64,000 nucleotides of DNA from Escherichia coli (GTDB lineage: Bacteria; Pseudomonadota; Gammaproteobacteria; Enterobacterales; Enterobacteriaceae), in NCBI RefSeq assembly GCF_011045215.1, contig NZ_CP049201.1; one strand, given 5' to 3'. Below, in pieces: positions 54,599 through 58,475 of the stretch. The stretch's first letter is position 1, and each line of letters starts with the position of its first letter. Under the pieces are notes generated by a model. It was not told the DNA's origin. It saw nothing but the letters and a program-made list of their open reading frames with translations, and searched no databases. The translations under genes were made by a program, and so were the position numbers.

Positions 54599-55714
54599 TT
54601 ACTGCATCAATACGGTAGCTATCGCACTGCCAGAAAACGATCCAGCATCAATTCTGTTTGTATCTATAACCCTATATTGTGACGTTATATCAAATGTTCT
54701 ACTTCCACTGATAACCCCCGAAAATTCCTTCGCACCATCAACAGTCAATGTGCACTTTCCATTATCTCCACATCGAGTTACATTCCCCCCTTCCCCTGAT
54801 ATTAGATTACTACCTTTAATGGTTATATCTACTCTGGTTGGTGAACTGCAATTAATCACTAATCCGGCCTTAGCAAAGTGTCCATCACGAGCCTGGGCTG
54901 ATGTTATTGCATTATGATTTATTGATATATCTTTATTCCCTGCTATATTACAGGATGCCAGAACATTCACTCTTACAGGGGCATATCTGTTCTCCATATT
55001 AACTACTGCAGACTCAACACCCCCACCATCAGAACAATATTTTTCCCCCTTATACCATTCCTCAGATCCTATTTTTAGCGGAATGTTTAAATCATATATT
55101 CCGGCTAAAGCACTGCCCCTCTCTATCGTTACCCTCAATTTGGTACTCTGAAAGTTGTTATATACCAGAGGATATCTGTATCCCGGGACAATTTCTCCTT
55201 CTGGGAATGGTCTGTCATACCAATCATAGTTATCATAAACACCAACGTAAGTCTGATAACCATTATAAATACCACGTTTATTATACCCCCCGGAAATAAT
55301 CTGAATACTCCCTTTCAGACCATTACCCAATCGTATGTTATTACTATCAACTGGCATCGCAATCCATGTTGCCTGACTCTTTGAGCCTTTACCCGAAAGA
55401 ATCTTAACCGGCGAGCTAACAGGCACATTATGACGCTGGACCCAGCTAACAACTGCAGACGTTCTTGGTGCCAGACCGGGCAATACAATATCAAAATAAC
55501 TTGCTGTGTTTCCTGAGGAAATTGTTACATCCGGAATAGTAACATTGTTACCATCTAACTGCCACAATATTTGCATATCACGACAAGGTTCATATGCAAA
55601 TGAACAACCTGATATAAAAACAAAAAGATAAATTATTTTCTCACACCACATACCTTTCACACCTTGTATATCCCCAGACCAGAAAATCCCTGAGCGCATA
55701 AATAACCCTCTCAC
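54599..55714 (-). CDS. Putative secreted lipoprotein, beta-rich, unknown function
   Basis: 371-aa ORF; likely start at internal MWCEKIIYLFVFISGCSF (lipobox ISGC; start ~55651); Gly/Ser/Asn/Tyr-rich; AT-rich codon usage unlike the core genes. Confidence 0.6.
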   Translation of the reverse strand: MRGLFMRSGIFWSGDIQGVKGMWCEKIIYLFVFISGCSFAYEPCRDMQILWQLDGNNVTIPDVTISSGNTASYFDIVLPGLAPRTSAVVSWVQRHNVPVSSPVKILSGKGSKSQATWIAMPVDSNNIRLGNGLKGSIQIISGGYNKRGIYNGYQTYVGVYDNYDWYDRPFPEGEIVPGYRYPLVYNNFQSTKLRVTIERGSALAGIYDLNIPLKIGSEEWYKGEKYCSDGGGVESAVVNMENRYAPVRVNVLASCNIAGNKDISINHNAITSAQARDGHFAKAGLVINCSSPTRVDITIKGSNLISGEGGNVTRCGDNGKCTLTVDGAKEFSGVISGSRTFDITSQYRVIDTNRIDAGSFSGSAIATVLMQ

Positions 55715-56797
55715 TACGAACCGAAGACAACTCCATTAACAACGGAAAAACAAACTCAGATACCTTTCCTGGTATTAAAACATCCTTCTCTTTTACTTTT
55801 TTTGCACATCTTCTCCTTAACCATAAAACAGAGAAAGAATAAAATTCGCACACAGGATATATAGATACTTTATCCCAGTAAATAACAAAAAAACGATCTT
55901 TTTATCTACAAAAACGACACAATAAAGACAAACAAACCAAAAACACAAAAAAACACCAAAAATAACTCCAATTGGCAGCAAAATAACAAATAAAAAGATC
56001 GTTTAATTTGCATTAAGCAGCATTTTTAACCGTACAAACAAAAAAGCAAAAATTAGACAAAAATCAAAAACAAGTATATCAAAAAATGGAAAAACAAAAG
56101 ACAGTAATATTATGAGTTGCTTTTTTGTTCACATGTAAACAGGTGAATTTCATTTCAGAGATACTGATTATCCTGAAAATACTTATTCATTAATTACCAA
56201 CACTTTTTCATGTAAACATCACGCTAATTGCATGGAAAAAGAAAGGAAACTTTTTAGTCGGCATGAAGACACTTTTGTAATTACTGTACAGATACTAATT
56301 GTTCCTGCCCTTCCTGACCCGATAGCGTGACAATCCATTTACATGGTTCCATGAAATTGTGAACTGCCTGATAATCTAATGTCGTGTCAACACCACGATC
56401 TTTGACCGTCTTATATATCACTGGTACTAATAGATTAACCCGACCACAGGAAAAATATTTCCGTCAGGTATTTGGATATGCCCGGAACCAAGATCCACAA
56501 AACAGACCACTGACGTTTGTCAATGTAATACTGGCCTTCTATGGTAAATGTTGTGCTCATCAATACACAGATGTGATTTGTCTGAACCTTTACTATGTTA
56601 CTATGGATGGTATTTTACGGGAGAGCTGGAAATACGTTACGCATCCGGAGCTCTTCCCAAAGAATTAACAGCTTGAGCTCGAAAAGGGAAACCTGTTCTG
56701 AATTCCACCTCGGAAAATATAATAACCAGTTTTCTTATGACTATTATGCTTAAACACTGCCCAGATATGTCAGGGAAGAAAGAGTATGATAGACTCA

Positions 56798-57730
56798 TCA
56801 GCTGATGATCTCAGAAAAATCCAACTTTATCTGATGAATATCCTCAAGCTGTACTGATGGAAAATAATATCCCTGAACCCCCCATAAACCAGTTCCTGAA
56901 GCAGCATGCAGATAATCCTTATTTTCAACACCCTCGGCAATAACCAGAGGGCAAAATCTTTTTATATTGTCTATTAATGCAGAAAAATGCGGTTTCATAC
57001 TGTATTTTTGAAAAAAACTTTTGTCAAGTTTCACTGCCTGGAATTTATTTCTTATCAATGTATGTATTGTACTGTTACCACTCCCTAAATCATCCAGCCA
57101 GATATGTTCTGACAAATTAATGAGAAAAGGAATTATTGCATCATCAGCCTTTATGACCGGATATGTTTCAGAAATCTCAAGAACAATAAAATCATATGAC
57201 TTTATTATATCTTGAATGTTTTTATTTCTGTATATATACTGACATGTATCATAATCGACGTTAAGAGAACACAGTATATTATGCTTGCTAAAAAAAGAAG
57301 CTTTACTTATTATTTTTCTTATCTGTAATTCCAGCAAATCAATTTTCATCTCTGCTGTAAACATATTCAGCGTTTTCACGGTAGGAAGTTGTTTTCCGTT
57401 AACAGAATAAAATCGGCTCAGAATCTCCACCGCAATCAGCCTGTTACTGTTACCTGCCGTCACGACAGGCTCTGCTATGAAGATAGTTTTCATAAACTGC
57501 CCCATATGTGAATTGTTGCTTTCTCTTATGACTGTTGCTGTCAACGAATTAAACAAAAAGTCCCTGTTCATCCCTTCATCTGCCATGCCCTCCCCCCGGA
57601 ATAAATCAGTACCAGACAGAGCGCAGCACTTCTTTACAGCACAAAACAGCAATATAATCAATTGCTTTTTATTTATTACGTGACAACCATTACAAAAAAA
57701 CAAAATATTTTTCCTTTCTTTTCCTTTCAT
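56798..57730 (-). CDS. Stand-alone EAL-domain protein (YdiV-like; c-di-GMP phosphodiesterase or degenerate regulator)
   Basis: 310-aa ORF with EAL-family motifs LEISE ... DDLGSGNST ... DKSF ... AEGVE; no GGDEF or sensor domain; true start may be an internal Met. Confidence 0.65.
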   Translation of the reverse strand: MKGKERKNILFFCNGCHVINKKQLIILLFCAVKKCCALSGTDLFRGEGMADEGMNRDFLFNSLTATVIRESNNSHMGQFMKTIFIAEPVVTAGNSNRLIAVEILSRFYSVNGKQLPTVKTLNMFTAEMKIDLLELQIRKIISKASFFSKHNILCSLNVDYDTCQYIYRNKNIQDIIKSYDFIVLEISETYPVIKADDAIIPFLINLSEHIWLDDLGSGNSTIHTLIRNKFQAVKLDKSFFQKYSMKPHFSALIDNIKRFCPLVIAEGVENKDYLHAASGTGLWGVQGYYFPSVQLEDIHQIKLDFSEIIS

Positions 57731-57833
57731 CCATACTTACATAAATAAAAAACTGTAACAGCGCAAAGAATTATGACTATCATCTGCTCCTTCATACTGA
57801 AAAAAGATCATTTGATTTTCGGTTTTTAATGAT

Positions 57834-58475
57834 GTGTTAATATTAAATTATGGCGATATTCTTCTTGTTAACCCATCTTTGATGACAAGCTTTCTTACAT
57901 TTTCAGATAAATTCACTGAAGTACCTCTGAATGAAGATACAGTAAACCATTATATACACCATCGCCATACAGGGGAAAAACCAACCTACGACGGGCCTGT
58001 TCATTTTCTGAAAAAATGTTTTGCCTACCCGGAAGTGTTGTCAGAACTCATAAACAATATAAATTATGAAAATCATATCCATCCGGAATTCAGAGAAGCT
58101 GTCTGTTTCTCGTTATTGTCAATTTTTAATACCCGCCCCGCTTTAATAAACTTCCTTTCATCTGGCATCCCAACTTTTTCAGGAAAAGTACGAAACATAT
58201 TACTGTCAGATATATCACGACAATGGAAGTTGCGCGATATATCTGAATATGTATATATGAGTGAAAGTCTGATAAAGAAAAAACTTCTGTCTGAAAACAC
58301 ATGTTTCAGTAAAATTTTACTCGAAGTACGAATGTTTTCAGCCAGAAACTTACTGGAACAGAAATACTCAGTGAAACACGTTGCTGAAAAATGTGGCTAT
58401 TCCAGTACATCCTACTTTGTCTATCTTTTCAGACAACACTTTAATATAACACCACGACAATTCACCATGATATGA
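57834..58475 (+). CDS. AraC/XylS-family transcriptional regulator (AppY/EnvY/GadX-like)
   Basis: 213-aa ORF; C-terminal ~100 aa is a canonical AraC dual-HTH domain (...QWKLRDISEYVYMSESLIKKKLLSENTCFSKILLEVRMFSARNLLEQKYSVKHVAEKCGYSSTSYFVYLFRQHFNITPRQF). Confidence 0.8.
   Translation: MLILNYGDILLVNPSLMTSFLTFSDKFTEVPLNEDTVNHYIHHRHTGEKPTYDGPVHFLKKCFAYPEVLSELINNINYENHIHPEFREAVCFSLLSIFNTRPALINFLSSGIPTFSGKVRNILLSDISRQWKLRDISEYVYMSESLIKKKLLSENTCFSKILLEVRMFSARNLLEQKYSVKHVAEKCGYSSTSYFVYLFRQHFNITPRQFTMI

What the first reader, a model, noticed from the sequence alone, without database searches (positions are those of the whole stretch)
54599..58475. AT-rich accessory module: orphan lipoprotein, 1.1-kb A-tract spacer, stand-alone YdiV-like EAL protein and AppY-family AraC regulator
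Three genes with AT-rich codon usage, clearly unlike the core genes, lie between IS insertions. They are a beta-rich lipoprotein, a sensor-less EAL-domain protein and a short (213 aa) AraC regulator of the AppY/EnvY/GadX type, arranged divergently. I could not match this combination to any named E. coli locus from memory. Pairing a c-di-GMP-type EAL protein with an AraC regulator and a surface lipoprotein suggests a self-contained, probably H-NS-silenced, regulatory and surface module.
Basis: partly seen in the sequence, partly recalled or inferred. Interest (0 to 1): 0.7.

Follow-up and report, generated by a model that had tools for sequence, protein, structure and literature searches.

The report
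Decayed fimbrial operon remnant plus EAL–AraC cassette
This AT-rich stretch is not a new self-contained module: it is a patchwork of leftovers in an E. coli genomic island (a stranded PapG-type pilus tip adhesin, half a PapB regulator with its methylation switch, a glycosidase fragment), joined to a mobile EAL–AraC gene pair whose AraC half is broken here.

Summary
The three ORFs, the low G+C (31-41% against 50% for the core) and the flanking IS elements are real.

- **"Lipoprotein".** It is a two-domain chaperone-usher tip adhesin. The model matches full-length PapG at E about 1e-16, homologs carry the MrpH_C domain, and homologs close intact pilus operons. The window has no chaperone, usher or pilin gene.
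- **"Spacer".** It holds a truncated papB, two inverted CGATCTTTTT boxes exactly 102 bp apart (the Pap Dam/Lrp switch signature), and a 248-bp GH2 glycosidase remnant.
- **EAL protein.** It is intact at 231 aa. Its closest solved relatives are STM1697 and YdiV, but unlike them it keeps all eleven catalytic residues, which are invariant across homologs of 51-56% identity.
- **AraC gene.** It is YdeO/GadW-like but decayed, with two 1-bp deletions and a premature stop relative to the intact 246-aa allele.
- **EAL–AraC pair.** The divergent pair is a conserved cassette on an ICE-like island, on P1-like phage-plasmids and on IncFII plasmids.

The exact layout recurs clonally, always next to IS481, YeeP and Ag43. 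Verdict: a mosaic remnant of known kinds. The only mildly novel part is the uncharacterised mobile EAL–AraC pair.

The parts
54599..55651 (-). Orphan PapG-class two-domain fimbrial tip adhesin gene (350 aa, intact ORF). It has a signal peptide, an N-terminal lectin-like domain and a C-terminal pilin (MrpH_C-type) domain.
   Evidence: The AF2 model has pLDDT 83. Foldseek matches full-length PapG 6cd2_B and 7lhg_G at E 8e-17 and 8e-16, the lectin domain at TMt 0.73 and the pilin domain at TMt 0.77. Homologs of 51-84% identity carry PF24223 MrpH_C. The homolog is the last gene of Fimbrial-Usher-Chaperone-3xFimbrial operons on Klebsiella plasmids and of a chaperone-usher operon on E. coli p7_33_46A-3. 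There is no Pfam or NCBIfam hit for the window protein itself.
55641..55853 (-). Truncated papB/focB-family regulator gene (papB'). It keeps residues 1-73 of a 103-aa protein, with a 9-bp in-frame deletion, and then runs into the adhesin start. The junction lies at about 55643-55651.
   Evidence: PGAP names the gene PapB/FocB in strains C5 and RM8082. Precomputed Pfam gives PF03333 PapB. tblastn of the intact RM8082 PapB matches residues 1-73 only. The nucleotide alignment shows the break.
55894..56001 (.). Pap-type switch signature. Two inverted CGATCTTTTT boxes, with GATC at 55895 and 55997, are spaced exactly 102 bp apart just upstream of papB'.
   Evidence: The motif occurs 3 times in the window against 0.19 expected. 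Two GATC boxes at 102 bp spacing are the stated signature of pap-related operons (PMC2909390).
56453..56700 (+). Remnant of the 3' part of a GH2 glycosidase gene, convergent with the EAL gene. It is the source of the spurious 94-aa ORF at 56384-56668.
   Evidence: blastn gives 87% identity to the GH2 gene of loci L005-L010. tblastn matches GH2 residues 437-516 of 615.
56798..57493 (-). Stand-alone EAL-domain protein, 231 aa and intact. The ORF extends upstream to 57730, but homologs start at MKTIF/MEVIY. It belongs to the STM1697/YdiV-related clade and has a complete catalytic residue set.
   Evidence: Pfam EAL E 4.7e-20. Similarity is 31% to STM1697 (6e-39), 28.5% to YdiV/RflP and 25.6% to PdeH. 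E23, R27, N78, E106, E109, D134, D135, K155, E187, E190 and Q207 are invariant in 10 homologs of 51-56% identity.
57773..58475 (+). Decayed AraC-family (YdeO/GadW-like) regulator gene, divergent from the EAL gene. The ancestral ATG is at 57773. Two 1-bp deletions remove the first 24 codons from the frame, and a TGC>TGA change gives a stop 11 codons early. Homology to the intact allele ends at 58496.
   Evidence: The intact allele is P0033, 246 aa. Nucleotide alignments are and the translation. NCBIfam gives YdeO 9e-50. P0033 is 38.5% identical to YdeO and 40% to GadW over the full length. In the source genome only a 72-aa HTH fragment is on record (P0036).
53263..54234 (-). IS481-family transposase directly downstream of the adhesin gene (context).
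   Evidence: PGAP annotation of the identical layout in strain C5. It is 92.8% identical to ISEc18 next to the adhesin homolog in p7_33_46A-3.
58497..59414 (.). Junk beyond the AraC gene. It holds a short repeat (58508-58624), an IS630 fragment (about 58634-58949) and a YfdX-family gene fragment (about 58949-59414), followed by the IS3 element.

Best explanation
The region is a mosaic of remnants inside a genomic island inserted at tRNA-Ser(GGA) (40107-40194). It has two unrelated origins.

1. **EAL–AraC cassette.** This mobile two-gene cassette came with a piece of its former neighbour, a GH2 glycosidase gene.
2. **Pap-like fimbrial operon.** Only three parts survive: the Dam/Lrp-type regulatory region, the 5' part of papB, and a PapG-class tip adhesin gene of the type that closes such operons in homologous loci. 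papB' now abuts the adhesin start codon. The window holds no pilin, usher, chaperone or minor-subunit genes.

Inferred consequences:
- A transcript from the phase-variable papBA-type promoter would now encode only PapB' and the adhesin.
- Without a cognate chaperone and usher, the adhesin cannot be folded by donor-strand complementation or exported. It is most likely a non-functional relic.
- The AraC gene is a pseudogene in this window.
- The only gene likely to work is the EAL gene. Because its whole catalytic set is kept under selection, it most likely hydrolyses c-di-GMP. It may also, or instead, bind FlhD like its closest relatives STM1697 and YdiV.

Shown here: the anatomy, the homologies, the junctions and the decay. 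Inferred: expression, loss of adhesin function and EAL activity.
For: - **Adhesin identity:**
- **papB truncation and junction:**
- **No assembly genes:** tblastn finds no chaperone, usher, pilin or PapI in the 64-kb window at E<=0.01.
- **Intact counterpart:** in C5 plasmid A the same EAL, regulatory region and papB (96-97% identity) lead into a complete operon of two fimbrial genes, usher, chaperone, three more fimbrial genes and three distal genes of about 315 aa.
- **GATC boxes at 102 bp:**
- **GH2 remnant and cassette origin:** window 56701-58496 is 96.4% identical to ICE-like loci L005-L010. There AraC is 246 aa and EAL is followed by GH2, an MFS gene and an autotransporter gene.
- **AraC decay:**
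- **EAL catalytic residues conserved:**
- **Clonal layout:** all 8 places shown (24 contigs read) that carry the exact adhesin have the order EAL, PapB', adhesin, IS481, YeeP-like GTPase, Ag43.
- **Rarity:** 5 of 5426 complete E. coli genomes match, 4 of them holding the EAL–papB piece, and all five are bovine isolates.
Against: - The adhesin ORF is fully intact, is preserved in at least 42 cluster members, and sits directly behind a phase-variable promoter region. Use in trans is therefore not excluded.
- The adhesin is not one of the distal genes of the C5 plasmid A operon (no significant similarity). The ancestral operon that carried both this papB and this adhesin was not found, so 'one internal deletion' is an inference. 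A recombination between two operons is equally possible.
- A 213-aa AraC ORF with a GTG start and both HTH motifs persists and could still give a partly active protein.
- EAL loop 6 (DDLGSGNST) departs from the DDFG(T/A)GYSS consensus of active enzymes and resembles YdiV and STM1697. Activity is therefore not assured.
- No expression data were available.
Confidence: 0.8

Rival explanations
1. The papB'–adhesin fusion is a working phase-variable cassette for an alternative tip adhesin. The orphan PapG-like adhesin is expressed from the GATC-controlled promoter and assembled in trans by a related chaperone-usher system elsewhere in the genome or on a plasmid, changing receptor specificity.
For: - The adhesin ORF is intact and the family residues are conserved.
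- The same layout is maintained in many isolates, and strain C5 has two chromosomal copies.
- C5 also carries plasmid A, which has an intact operon with the same papB and regulatory region.
- The GATC switch is intact.
- Other orphan copies of this adhesin family exist.
Against: - No chaperone or usher lies in the window.
- Tip adhesins normally need a cognate adaptor subunit and chaperone.
- The Shine-Dalgarno-like AAGG sits only 2-3 nt from the ATG.
- No PapI-like co-regulator was found, and PapB is truncated.
- The surroundings are heavily decayed (IS481, IS3, IS630 fragments, pseudogenes).
Confidence: 0.12
2. The EAL protein is not an enzyme. It is an anti-FlhD4C2 factor like STM1697 and YdiV, and shuts down flagellar genes when the mobile element or fimbrial operon is active.
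For: - Its closest solved relatives are STM1697 (E 6e-32) and YdiV (6e-18), far ahead of active PDEs such as YahA/PdeL (4e-7).
- The two central FlhD-contact residues of STM1697 (F160, L173), plus L136 and K167, are kept (alignment; residue list from PMC5622320).
- Loop 6 is YdiV-like.
- Fimbrial loci commonly carry motility repressors (PapB-family review, PMC12388093).
Against: - All eleven catalytic and metal-binding residues are invariant over about 45% sequence divergence. STM1697 has lost R27, E106, D134 and E187, and YdiV has lost the DD and EGVE acidic residues.
- Four STM1697 interface residues are changed, one with a charge reversal (L116A, L172A, K175D, H176N).
- F160 lies in the KLDxSF motif common to all EAL domains, so it is not diagnostic.
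Confidence: 0.3
3. One reading: a self-contained, H-NS-silenced regulatory and surface module in which the AraC regulator and the EAL protein control a surface lipoprotein.
For: The DNA is AT-rich. The three ORFs co-occur in a lineage of isolates. EAL and AraC are a genuine conserved pair.
Against: - The 'lipoprotein' is a pilus adhesin, and its lipobox is absent from 18 of 20 family members.
- The adhesin never accompanies the EAL–AraC pair in that pair's other contexts: the ICE-like island, P1-like phage-plasmids and IncFII plasmids.
- AraC is decayed here and truncated in every other strain with this layout.
- The junctions show secondary assembly from fragments.
Confidence: 0.04

Closest known systems
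pap (P-fimbriae) operon and its papI–papB Dam/Lrp phase switch; related pi-class chaperone-usher operons such as MR/P of Proteus
   Same: It has a PapB-family regulator directly downstream of two inverted GATC boxes 102 bp apart. In the intact relative (C5 plasmid A) the gene order is major subunit, second subunit, usher, chaperone, minor subunits, distal adhesin-sized genes. The adhesin is PapG-like.
   Different: Here the operon is gutted: papB is truncated and there is no pilin, usher or chaperone. No PapI-like gene lies upstream, where an EAL gene and a GH2 fragment sit instead. The regulatory DNA has no nucleotide-level similarity to other E. coli loci outside three genomes.
PapG (P-pilus tip adhesin) and MrpH (MR/P tip adhesin)
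   Same: It has the two-domain architecture with the same folds: lectin domain TMt 0.73 and pilin domain TMt 0.77 against PapG. Homologs carry the MrpH_C Pfam domain and lie at the operon end.
   Different: Sequence identity to PapG is only 12-18% and the receptor is unknown. The gene is stranded without assembly machinery. The family (22 clusters found) is named only 'hypothetical protein'.
STM1697 and YdiV/RflP (EAL-like anti-FlhD4C2 factors)
   Same: It is a stand-alone protein of about 230 aa consisting only of an EAL domain. These are its best sequence matches (31% and 28.5% identity). It has a similar loop 6, and part of the FlhD interface is kept.
   Different: STM1697 and YdiV have lost catalytic residues and neither bind nor cleave c-di-GMP (PMC5622320). 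This protein and its family keep all of them. It is carried on mobile elements and paired with an AraC gene.
PdeH (YhjH), the stand-alone EAL c-di-GMP phosphodiesterase of E. coli
   Same: It is a single-domain EAL protein with a complete catalytic set. PdeH's family is the best NCBIfam model (PRK11596, 1e-23).
   Different: Identity is only 25.6%, and the score of 83.9 is far below the curated cut-off of 190. Loop 6 differs.
YdeO / GadW / GadX / AppY subgroup of AraC-XylS regulators
   Same: The intact allele aligns over its full length to YdeO (38.5%) and GadW (40%). It has the C-terminal double HTH.
   Different: It falls below every equivalog cut-off, it is encoded on mobile elements and paired with an EAL gene, and it is decayed in this window.

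Membership tests
Pap-type Dam/Lrp phase-variation switch | Two GATC boxes spaced 102-103 bp apart upstream of the fimbrial promoter | tested here: met
   GATC lies at 55895 and 55997, within inverted CGATCTTTTT boxes. The signature is stated in PMC2909390.
Pap-type Dam/Lrp phase-variation switch | PapB-family regulator as the first gene downstream | tested here: met
   PF03333 and the PGAP name PapB/FocB apply, but only residues 1-73 of 103 remain.
Pap-type Dam/Lrp phase-variation switch | Divergent PapI-like co-regulator gene | tested here: not met
   There is no PapI/FaeA match in the window by tblastn at E<=0.01. No candidate ORF lies in 55850-56800.
Pap-type Dam/Lrp phase-variation switch | Lrp binding and differential methylation of the two GATC sites | not testable with these tools
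   This needs methylome or footprinting data.
Chaperone-usher fimbrial operon | Usher, periplasmic chaperone and major pilin genes | tested here: not met
   tblastn with two ushers, two chaperones and two pilins from related operons finds nothing in the 64-kb window.
Two-domain chaperone-usher tip adhesin (PapG/MrpH class) | N-terminal receptor-binding domain plus C-terminal pilin domain, and a signal peptide | tested here: met
   The AF2 model matches full-length PapG and both of its separate domains. MrpH_C is found in homologs. An N-terminal hydrophobic leader ends in FA|Y.
Two-domain chaperone-usher tip adhesin (PapG/MrpH class) | Position as the distal gene of a chaperone-usher operon | tested here: met
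   This holds for the homologs in Klebsiella plasmids and in p7_33_46A-3. It does not hold in the window, where the operon is missing.
Bacterial lipoprotein | Conserved lipobox L-[AS]-[GA]-C at the end of the signal peptide | tested here: not met
   ISGC/MSGC occurs in only 2 of 20 family members. The others have non-Cys sequences such as FSGDVFA and end in a signal peptidase I-type FA|Y/S site.
Catalytically active EAL c-di-GMP phosphodiesterase | Conserved E(A/I/V)LxR, N, ExxE, DD, K, E(G)VE and Q residues | tested here: met
   All are present and invariant in 10 homologs. They align to YahA/PdeL motifs.
Catalytically active EAL c-di-GMP phosphodiesterase | Loop 6 consensus DFG(T/A)GYSS | tested here: inconclusive
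   The sequence is DDLGSGNST here and DDFGSGN(A/S)T in homologs. The DD and the glycines are kept, but Y is replaced by N, as in YdiV and STM1697.
Catalytically active EAL c-di-GMP phosphodiesterase | c-di-GMP hydrolysis | not testable with these tools
   This needs an enzyme assay.
YdiV/STM1697 anti-FlhD4C2 factors | Degenerate catalytic site with no c-di-GMP binding | tested here: not met
   The catalytic set is complete, unlike STM1697 (R27H, E106Q, D134G, E187G) and YdiV.
YdiV/STM1697 anti-FlhD4C2 factors | FlhD-contact residues (STM1697 V115, L116, L136, V147, F160, K167, L172, L173, K175, H176, Y180) | tested here: inconclusive
   Four are identical, two are conservative changes, four are changed and one is gapped (alignment against PMC5622320).
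AraC/XylS regulators, YdeO/GadW subgroup | C-terminal double helix-turn-helix plus a full-length N-terminal domain | tested here: inconclusive
   The HTH region is present. The N-terminal 24 residues are lost through two frameshifts and there is a premature stop. The YdeO score of 169.6 is below the cut-off of 348.

The most novel reading that the evidence does not exclude
The divergent EAL–AraC pair is an uncharacterised mobile two-gene cassette. It is carried by ICE-like islands, by P1-like phage-plasmids (between mat and darB), by IncFII plasmids and by a fimbrial plasmid. Its EAL protein is a catalytically intact member of the otherwise degenerate STM1697/YdiV clade. Mobile elements would use it to reset host c-di-GMP levels, flagellar expression or both, under control of the YdeO/GadW-like regulator. 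In this window only the EAL half survives.
Probability: 0.4. Interest if true: 0.55.

Novelty: new member of a known kind. Interest (0 to 1): 0.3.

Why it matters
- **Annotation.** The work replaces an apparent new module with its correct anatomy. One 'hypothetical protein' family in E. coli and Klebsiella is a PapG/MrpH-class tip adhesin. A 'spacer' hides a Pap-type epigenetic switch and two gene fragments.
- **Biology.** The region shows how fimbrial operons decay inside tRNA-linked islands of bovine E. coli.
- **The lead worth following.** The EAL–AraC pair is conserved on several kinds of mobile elements, including hundreds of P1-like phage-plasmids, and no function is on record for it. 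Its EAL protein sits between active phosphodiesterases and the degenerate anti-FlhDC factors. It could show how that functional switch evolved and how mobile elements tune host motility or biofilm formation.

Tried and rejected
- **Family scans of the adhesin.** Pfam, NCBIfam, PHROGs and PADLOC gave no hits. Structure prediction was needed.
- **Promoter and terminator scan of 54400-58600.** It was not above shuffled expectation (18 against 15.7) and is uninformative.
- **Search for PapI.** ORF listing and tblastn found none.
- **Search for the ancestral operon.** I looked for one carrying both this papB and this adhesin. The closest adhesin homologs (84% and 73% identity) lie in unrelated junk next to invasin-like and ICE genes. 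The 5' end of the p7_33_46A-3 operon is cut by IS elements. The three distal genes of C5 plasmid A are unrelated to the adhesin. The one-step internal deletion model therefore stays inferred.
- **Nucleotide search of the regulatory region against 5426 E. coli genomes.** Only three genomes matched, and there was no link to canonical pap, sfa or foc.
- **Literature searches.** I searched for the EAL–AraC pair, for P1-like or phage-plasmid EAL proteins, and for extra E. coli EAL genes (PdeX, PdeY, PdeT, PdeU). Nothing could be tied to this protein.
- **Defence-system reading of the cassette.** PADLOC gave only one marginal hit, so I rejected it.
- **Lipoprotein reading.** The family alignment rules it out.

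
Full report
**Observation.** The segment is AT-rich: G+C is 0.27-0.41 in sliding windows, and 0.40, 0.34 and 0.35 for the three genes. The core part of the window has 0.505. IS elements flank the segment: an IS481-family transposase at 53263-54234 and an IS3-family element at 59462-61029. The first 39 kb of the window is ordinary E. coli core (comEC, pflB, trxB, aat). A tRNA-Ser(GGA) at 40107-40194 marks the start of a genomic island that contains a YeeP-like GTPase, Ag43 and the segment in question.

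**Rarity and relatives.** Megablast of 54400-58600 against 5426 complete E. coli genomes finds only five genomes, all from cattle. Strains C5 (chromosome) and 52F4 share the whole layout at 98% identity. C5 plasmid A and RM8082 share only the EAL-to-papB piece, and plasmid p7_33_46A-3 holds only a 72%-identical fragment of the adhesin gene. In C5 plasmid A the same EAL gene, upstream region and papB (96-97% identity) lead into a complete chaperone-usher operon. That operon has two fimbrial genes, usher, chaperone, three more fimbrial genes and three distal genes of about 315 aa.

**The 'lipoprotein' is a pilus tip adhesin.**
- The likely start is the ATG at 55651 (350 aa). Exact copies of the 350- and 366-aa forms are on record as E. 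coli hypothetical proteins.
- Pfam and NCBIfam give nothing.
- A database search finds 22 clusters at 51-100% identity, many carrying PF24223 MrpH_C.
- On Klebsiella plasmids the homolog is the last gene of a Fimbrial-Usher-Chaperone-3xFimbrial-adhesin operon. On E. coli p7_33_46A-3 a homolog of 64% identity is also the distal gene of a chaperone-usher operon, again next to an IS481-like element.
- An AlphaFold model built on the 20-sequence alignment (pLDDT 83) matches full-length PapG (6cd2_B at E 8e-17; 7lhg_G at E 8e-16, TMt 0.62). It also matches the PapG lectin domain (TMt 0.73) and the PapG pilin domain (TMt 0.77), and then LpfD, CupB6, CsuE and FimH.
- The lipobox-like ISGC is present in only 2 of 20 family members. 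The leader ends in a signal peptidase I-type FA|Y/S site.
- The window holds no usher, chaperone, pilin or PapI gene (tblastn).

**The 'spacer' has three parts.**
1. *papB'* (55641-55853). It matches residues 1-73 of the intact 103-aa PapB of RM8082, with a 9-bp in-frame deletion. Homology stops within a few bases of the adhesin start codon. The junction lies at 55643-55651, and the adhesin ATG lies in the last papB-homologous bases.
2. *GATC boxes.* Two inverted CGATCTTTTT boxes have their GATC at 55895 and 55997, exactly 102 bp apart. The motif occurs 3 times in the window against 0.19 expected. Two GATC boxes at 102 bp spacing are the stated signature of pap-related Dam/Lrp-controlled operons (PMC2909390).
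3. *GH2 remnant* (56453-56700). It is 87% identical to the 3' part of a GH2 glycosidase gene (residues 437-516 of 615). This explains the spurious 94-aa plus-strand ORF.

**The EAL–AraC pair is a mobile cassette.**
- Window 56701-58496 is 96.4% identical to loci in draft E. coli genomes (L005-L010). There a 246-aa AraC protein (P0033) and the EAL gene are divergent neighbours inside an ICE-like island that carries an integrase, DUF1281 and TraI_2. The EAL gene is followed there by the intact GH2 gene, an MFS_2 transporter gene and an autotransporter gene.
- A diverged copy of the same pair (about 68% nucleotide and 54% protein identity) lies on 329 plasmids. In the two examined, it sits in P1-like phage-plasmids between mat and darB. 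It is also present in some P1-type phage records.
- The two proteins fall in PHROG families of unknown function.
- A third lineage, with a 226-aa EAL and a 234-aa AraC, lies on IncFII plasmids.
- The pairing is therefore conserved over about 45% protein divergence and four kinds of mobile element. The adhesin accompanies the pair in none of these other contexts.

**EAL protein.**
- Homologs and STM1697 start at the position of MKTIF, which gives 231 aa (56798-57493).
- The closest solved structures are STM1697 (E 6e-32) and YdiV (6e-18). Active enzymes such as YahA/PdeL score only 4e-7. By BLASTP the identities are 31% to STM1697, 28.5% to YdiV/RflP and 25.6% to PdeH. So 'YdiV-like' is fair by similarity.
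- Even so, every canonical catalytic residue is present: E23, R27, N78, E106, E109, D134, D135, K155, E187, E190 and Q207. All are invariant in ten homologs of 51-56% identity. STM1697 has lost four of them, and YdiV has lost the DD and EGVE acidic residues.
- Loop 6 (DDLGSGNST) is intermediate.
- Of the eleven FlhD-contact residues of STM1697 (PMC5622320), four are identical, two are conservative changes, four are changed and one is gapped.
- I judge c-di-GMP hydrolysis the more likely activity (about 0.5), and FlhD antagonism possible either instead or in addition (about 0.3).

**AraC gene.** The intact allele is 38.5% identical to YdeO and 40% to GadW over its full length. The best NCBIfam model is YdeO, below its cut-off. 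In the window the ancestral ATG is at 57773. Two 1-bp deletions in codons 10-18 bring a stop into frame, and the remaining ORF restarts at GTG 57834 without the first 24 residues. A TGC>TGA change ends it 11 codons early, and homology ends at 58496. In C5, RM8082 and C5 plasmid A the gene is cut at 58245 by a shared rearrangement. The window therefore holds the least damaged copy in this lineage, but it is still a pseudogene by comparison. Only a 72-aa HTH fragment is on record for the source chromosome.

**Clonality.** All 8 places shown (from 24 contigs read) that carry the exact adhesin have the same order: EAL, PapB', adhesin, IS481, a 60-aa ORF, YeeP-like GTPase, Ag43. Strain C5 has two chromosomal copies.

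**Mechanism.**
- *Shown:* the anatomy, the junctions, the decay, and the absence of assembly genes.
- *Inferred:* a phase-variable promoter region now drives only a PapB stub and a stranded adhesin. That adhesin cannot mature without a cognate chaperone and usher. The EAL gene is the one likely functional gene. The AraC partner that probably controlled it is dead here.
- *Not resolved:* the single-deletion origin is inferred. No ancestor was found that carries both this papB and this adhesin, and the distal genes of the C5 plasmid operon are unrelated. A recombination between two operons is an alternative.

**Comparison and novelty.**
- The fimbrial parts are new members of known kinds, the pi-class Pap/MR/P-type operon and the PapG/MrpH-class adhesin.
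- The switch meets the GATC-box criterion but lacks PapI.
- The EAL protein fails the defining 'degenerate site' feature of YdiV and STM1697, although they are its nearest relatives.
- The AraC protein is a YdeO/GadW-like family member, not an equivalog.
- I found no literature on the EAL–AraC cassette.

**Verdict.** The finding as posed, a new self-contained regulatory and surface module, is not supported. It is a mosaic remnant. Interest is low to moderate (0.3). The mobile EAL–AraC pair is the one lead worth following.

Noticed in passing
window 40107-40194 (+) and onward to 64000: tRNA-Ser(GGA) marks the boundary between core genes (comEC, pflB, trxB, aat) and a genomic island of at least 24 kb. 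The island holds a YeeP-like GTPase (51728-52639), Ag43 (48507-51431), an 840-aa YeeR-like protein (45870-48392) and many IS elements.
   Followed up: partly
L026 8955-10601; L027 4155-5801 (P1-like phage-plasmids): A diverged EAL–AraC pair sits between mat and darB of P1-like phage-plasmids, and 329 plasmids match at 60-80% identity. Both proteins fall in PHROG families of unknown function (phrog_32988, phrog_1450). One phage record annotates the EAL as 'ydiV, putative anti-FlhC2FlhD4 factor'.
   Followed up: partly
L004 21-2925 (C5 plasmid A): The intact Pap-like operon ends with three tandem genes of 314-319 aa. Each has a signal peptide and a pilin-like C-terminal strand, and they have no significant similarity to each other or to the window adhesin. 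They may be three alternative tip adhesins.
   Followed up: no
L023 108-1148; L024 5382-6440; L025 4451-5509: The closest homologs of the adhesin (84% and 73% identity) are also orphans. They lie next to invasin/intimin-like genes and ICE relaxase or helicase genes, not in fimbrial operons.
   Followed up: partly
NZ_CP010122.1 3778560-3779378 and 3986875-3990687: The chromosome of strain C5 carries two copies of the papB'–adhesin remnant, in addition to the intact operon on its plasmid A.
   Followed up: no
L001 15837-15940, L002 14593-14700, L004 15026-15130: C5 chromosome, RM8082 and C5 plasmid A share the same break in the AraC gene at the position equivalent to window 58245. About 105 nt of common sequence follow before they diverge (IS3 in C5; a 787-aa HTH protein, an M20 aminoacylase and an MFS gene in the others). 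This looks like an older shared rearrangement that the window lacks.
   Followed up: partly
window 58508-59414: A 117-nt stretch (58508-58624) is repeated twice in locus L001. It is followed by an IS630 transposase fragment (about 58634-58949) and a YfdX-family gene fragment (about 58949-59414).
   Followed up: no
window 53250-54275 vs L003 8304-9329: The IS481-like element next to the adhesin gene is 92.8% identical to ISEc18 next to the adhesin homolog on p7_33_46A-3, but it is inverted relative to the adhesin. This family of adhesin genes may be repeatedly associated with this IS.
   Followed up: no
window 61613-62248 (-): A 211-aa ORF has no NCBIfam match and only a marginal PADLOC 'mad1' hit. 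Its function is unknown.
   Followed up: no
window 21883-21892 (-): A third exact CGATCTTTTT lies in core DNA. It is probably chance.
   Followed up: no
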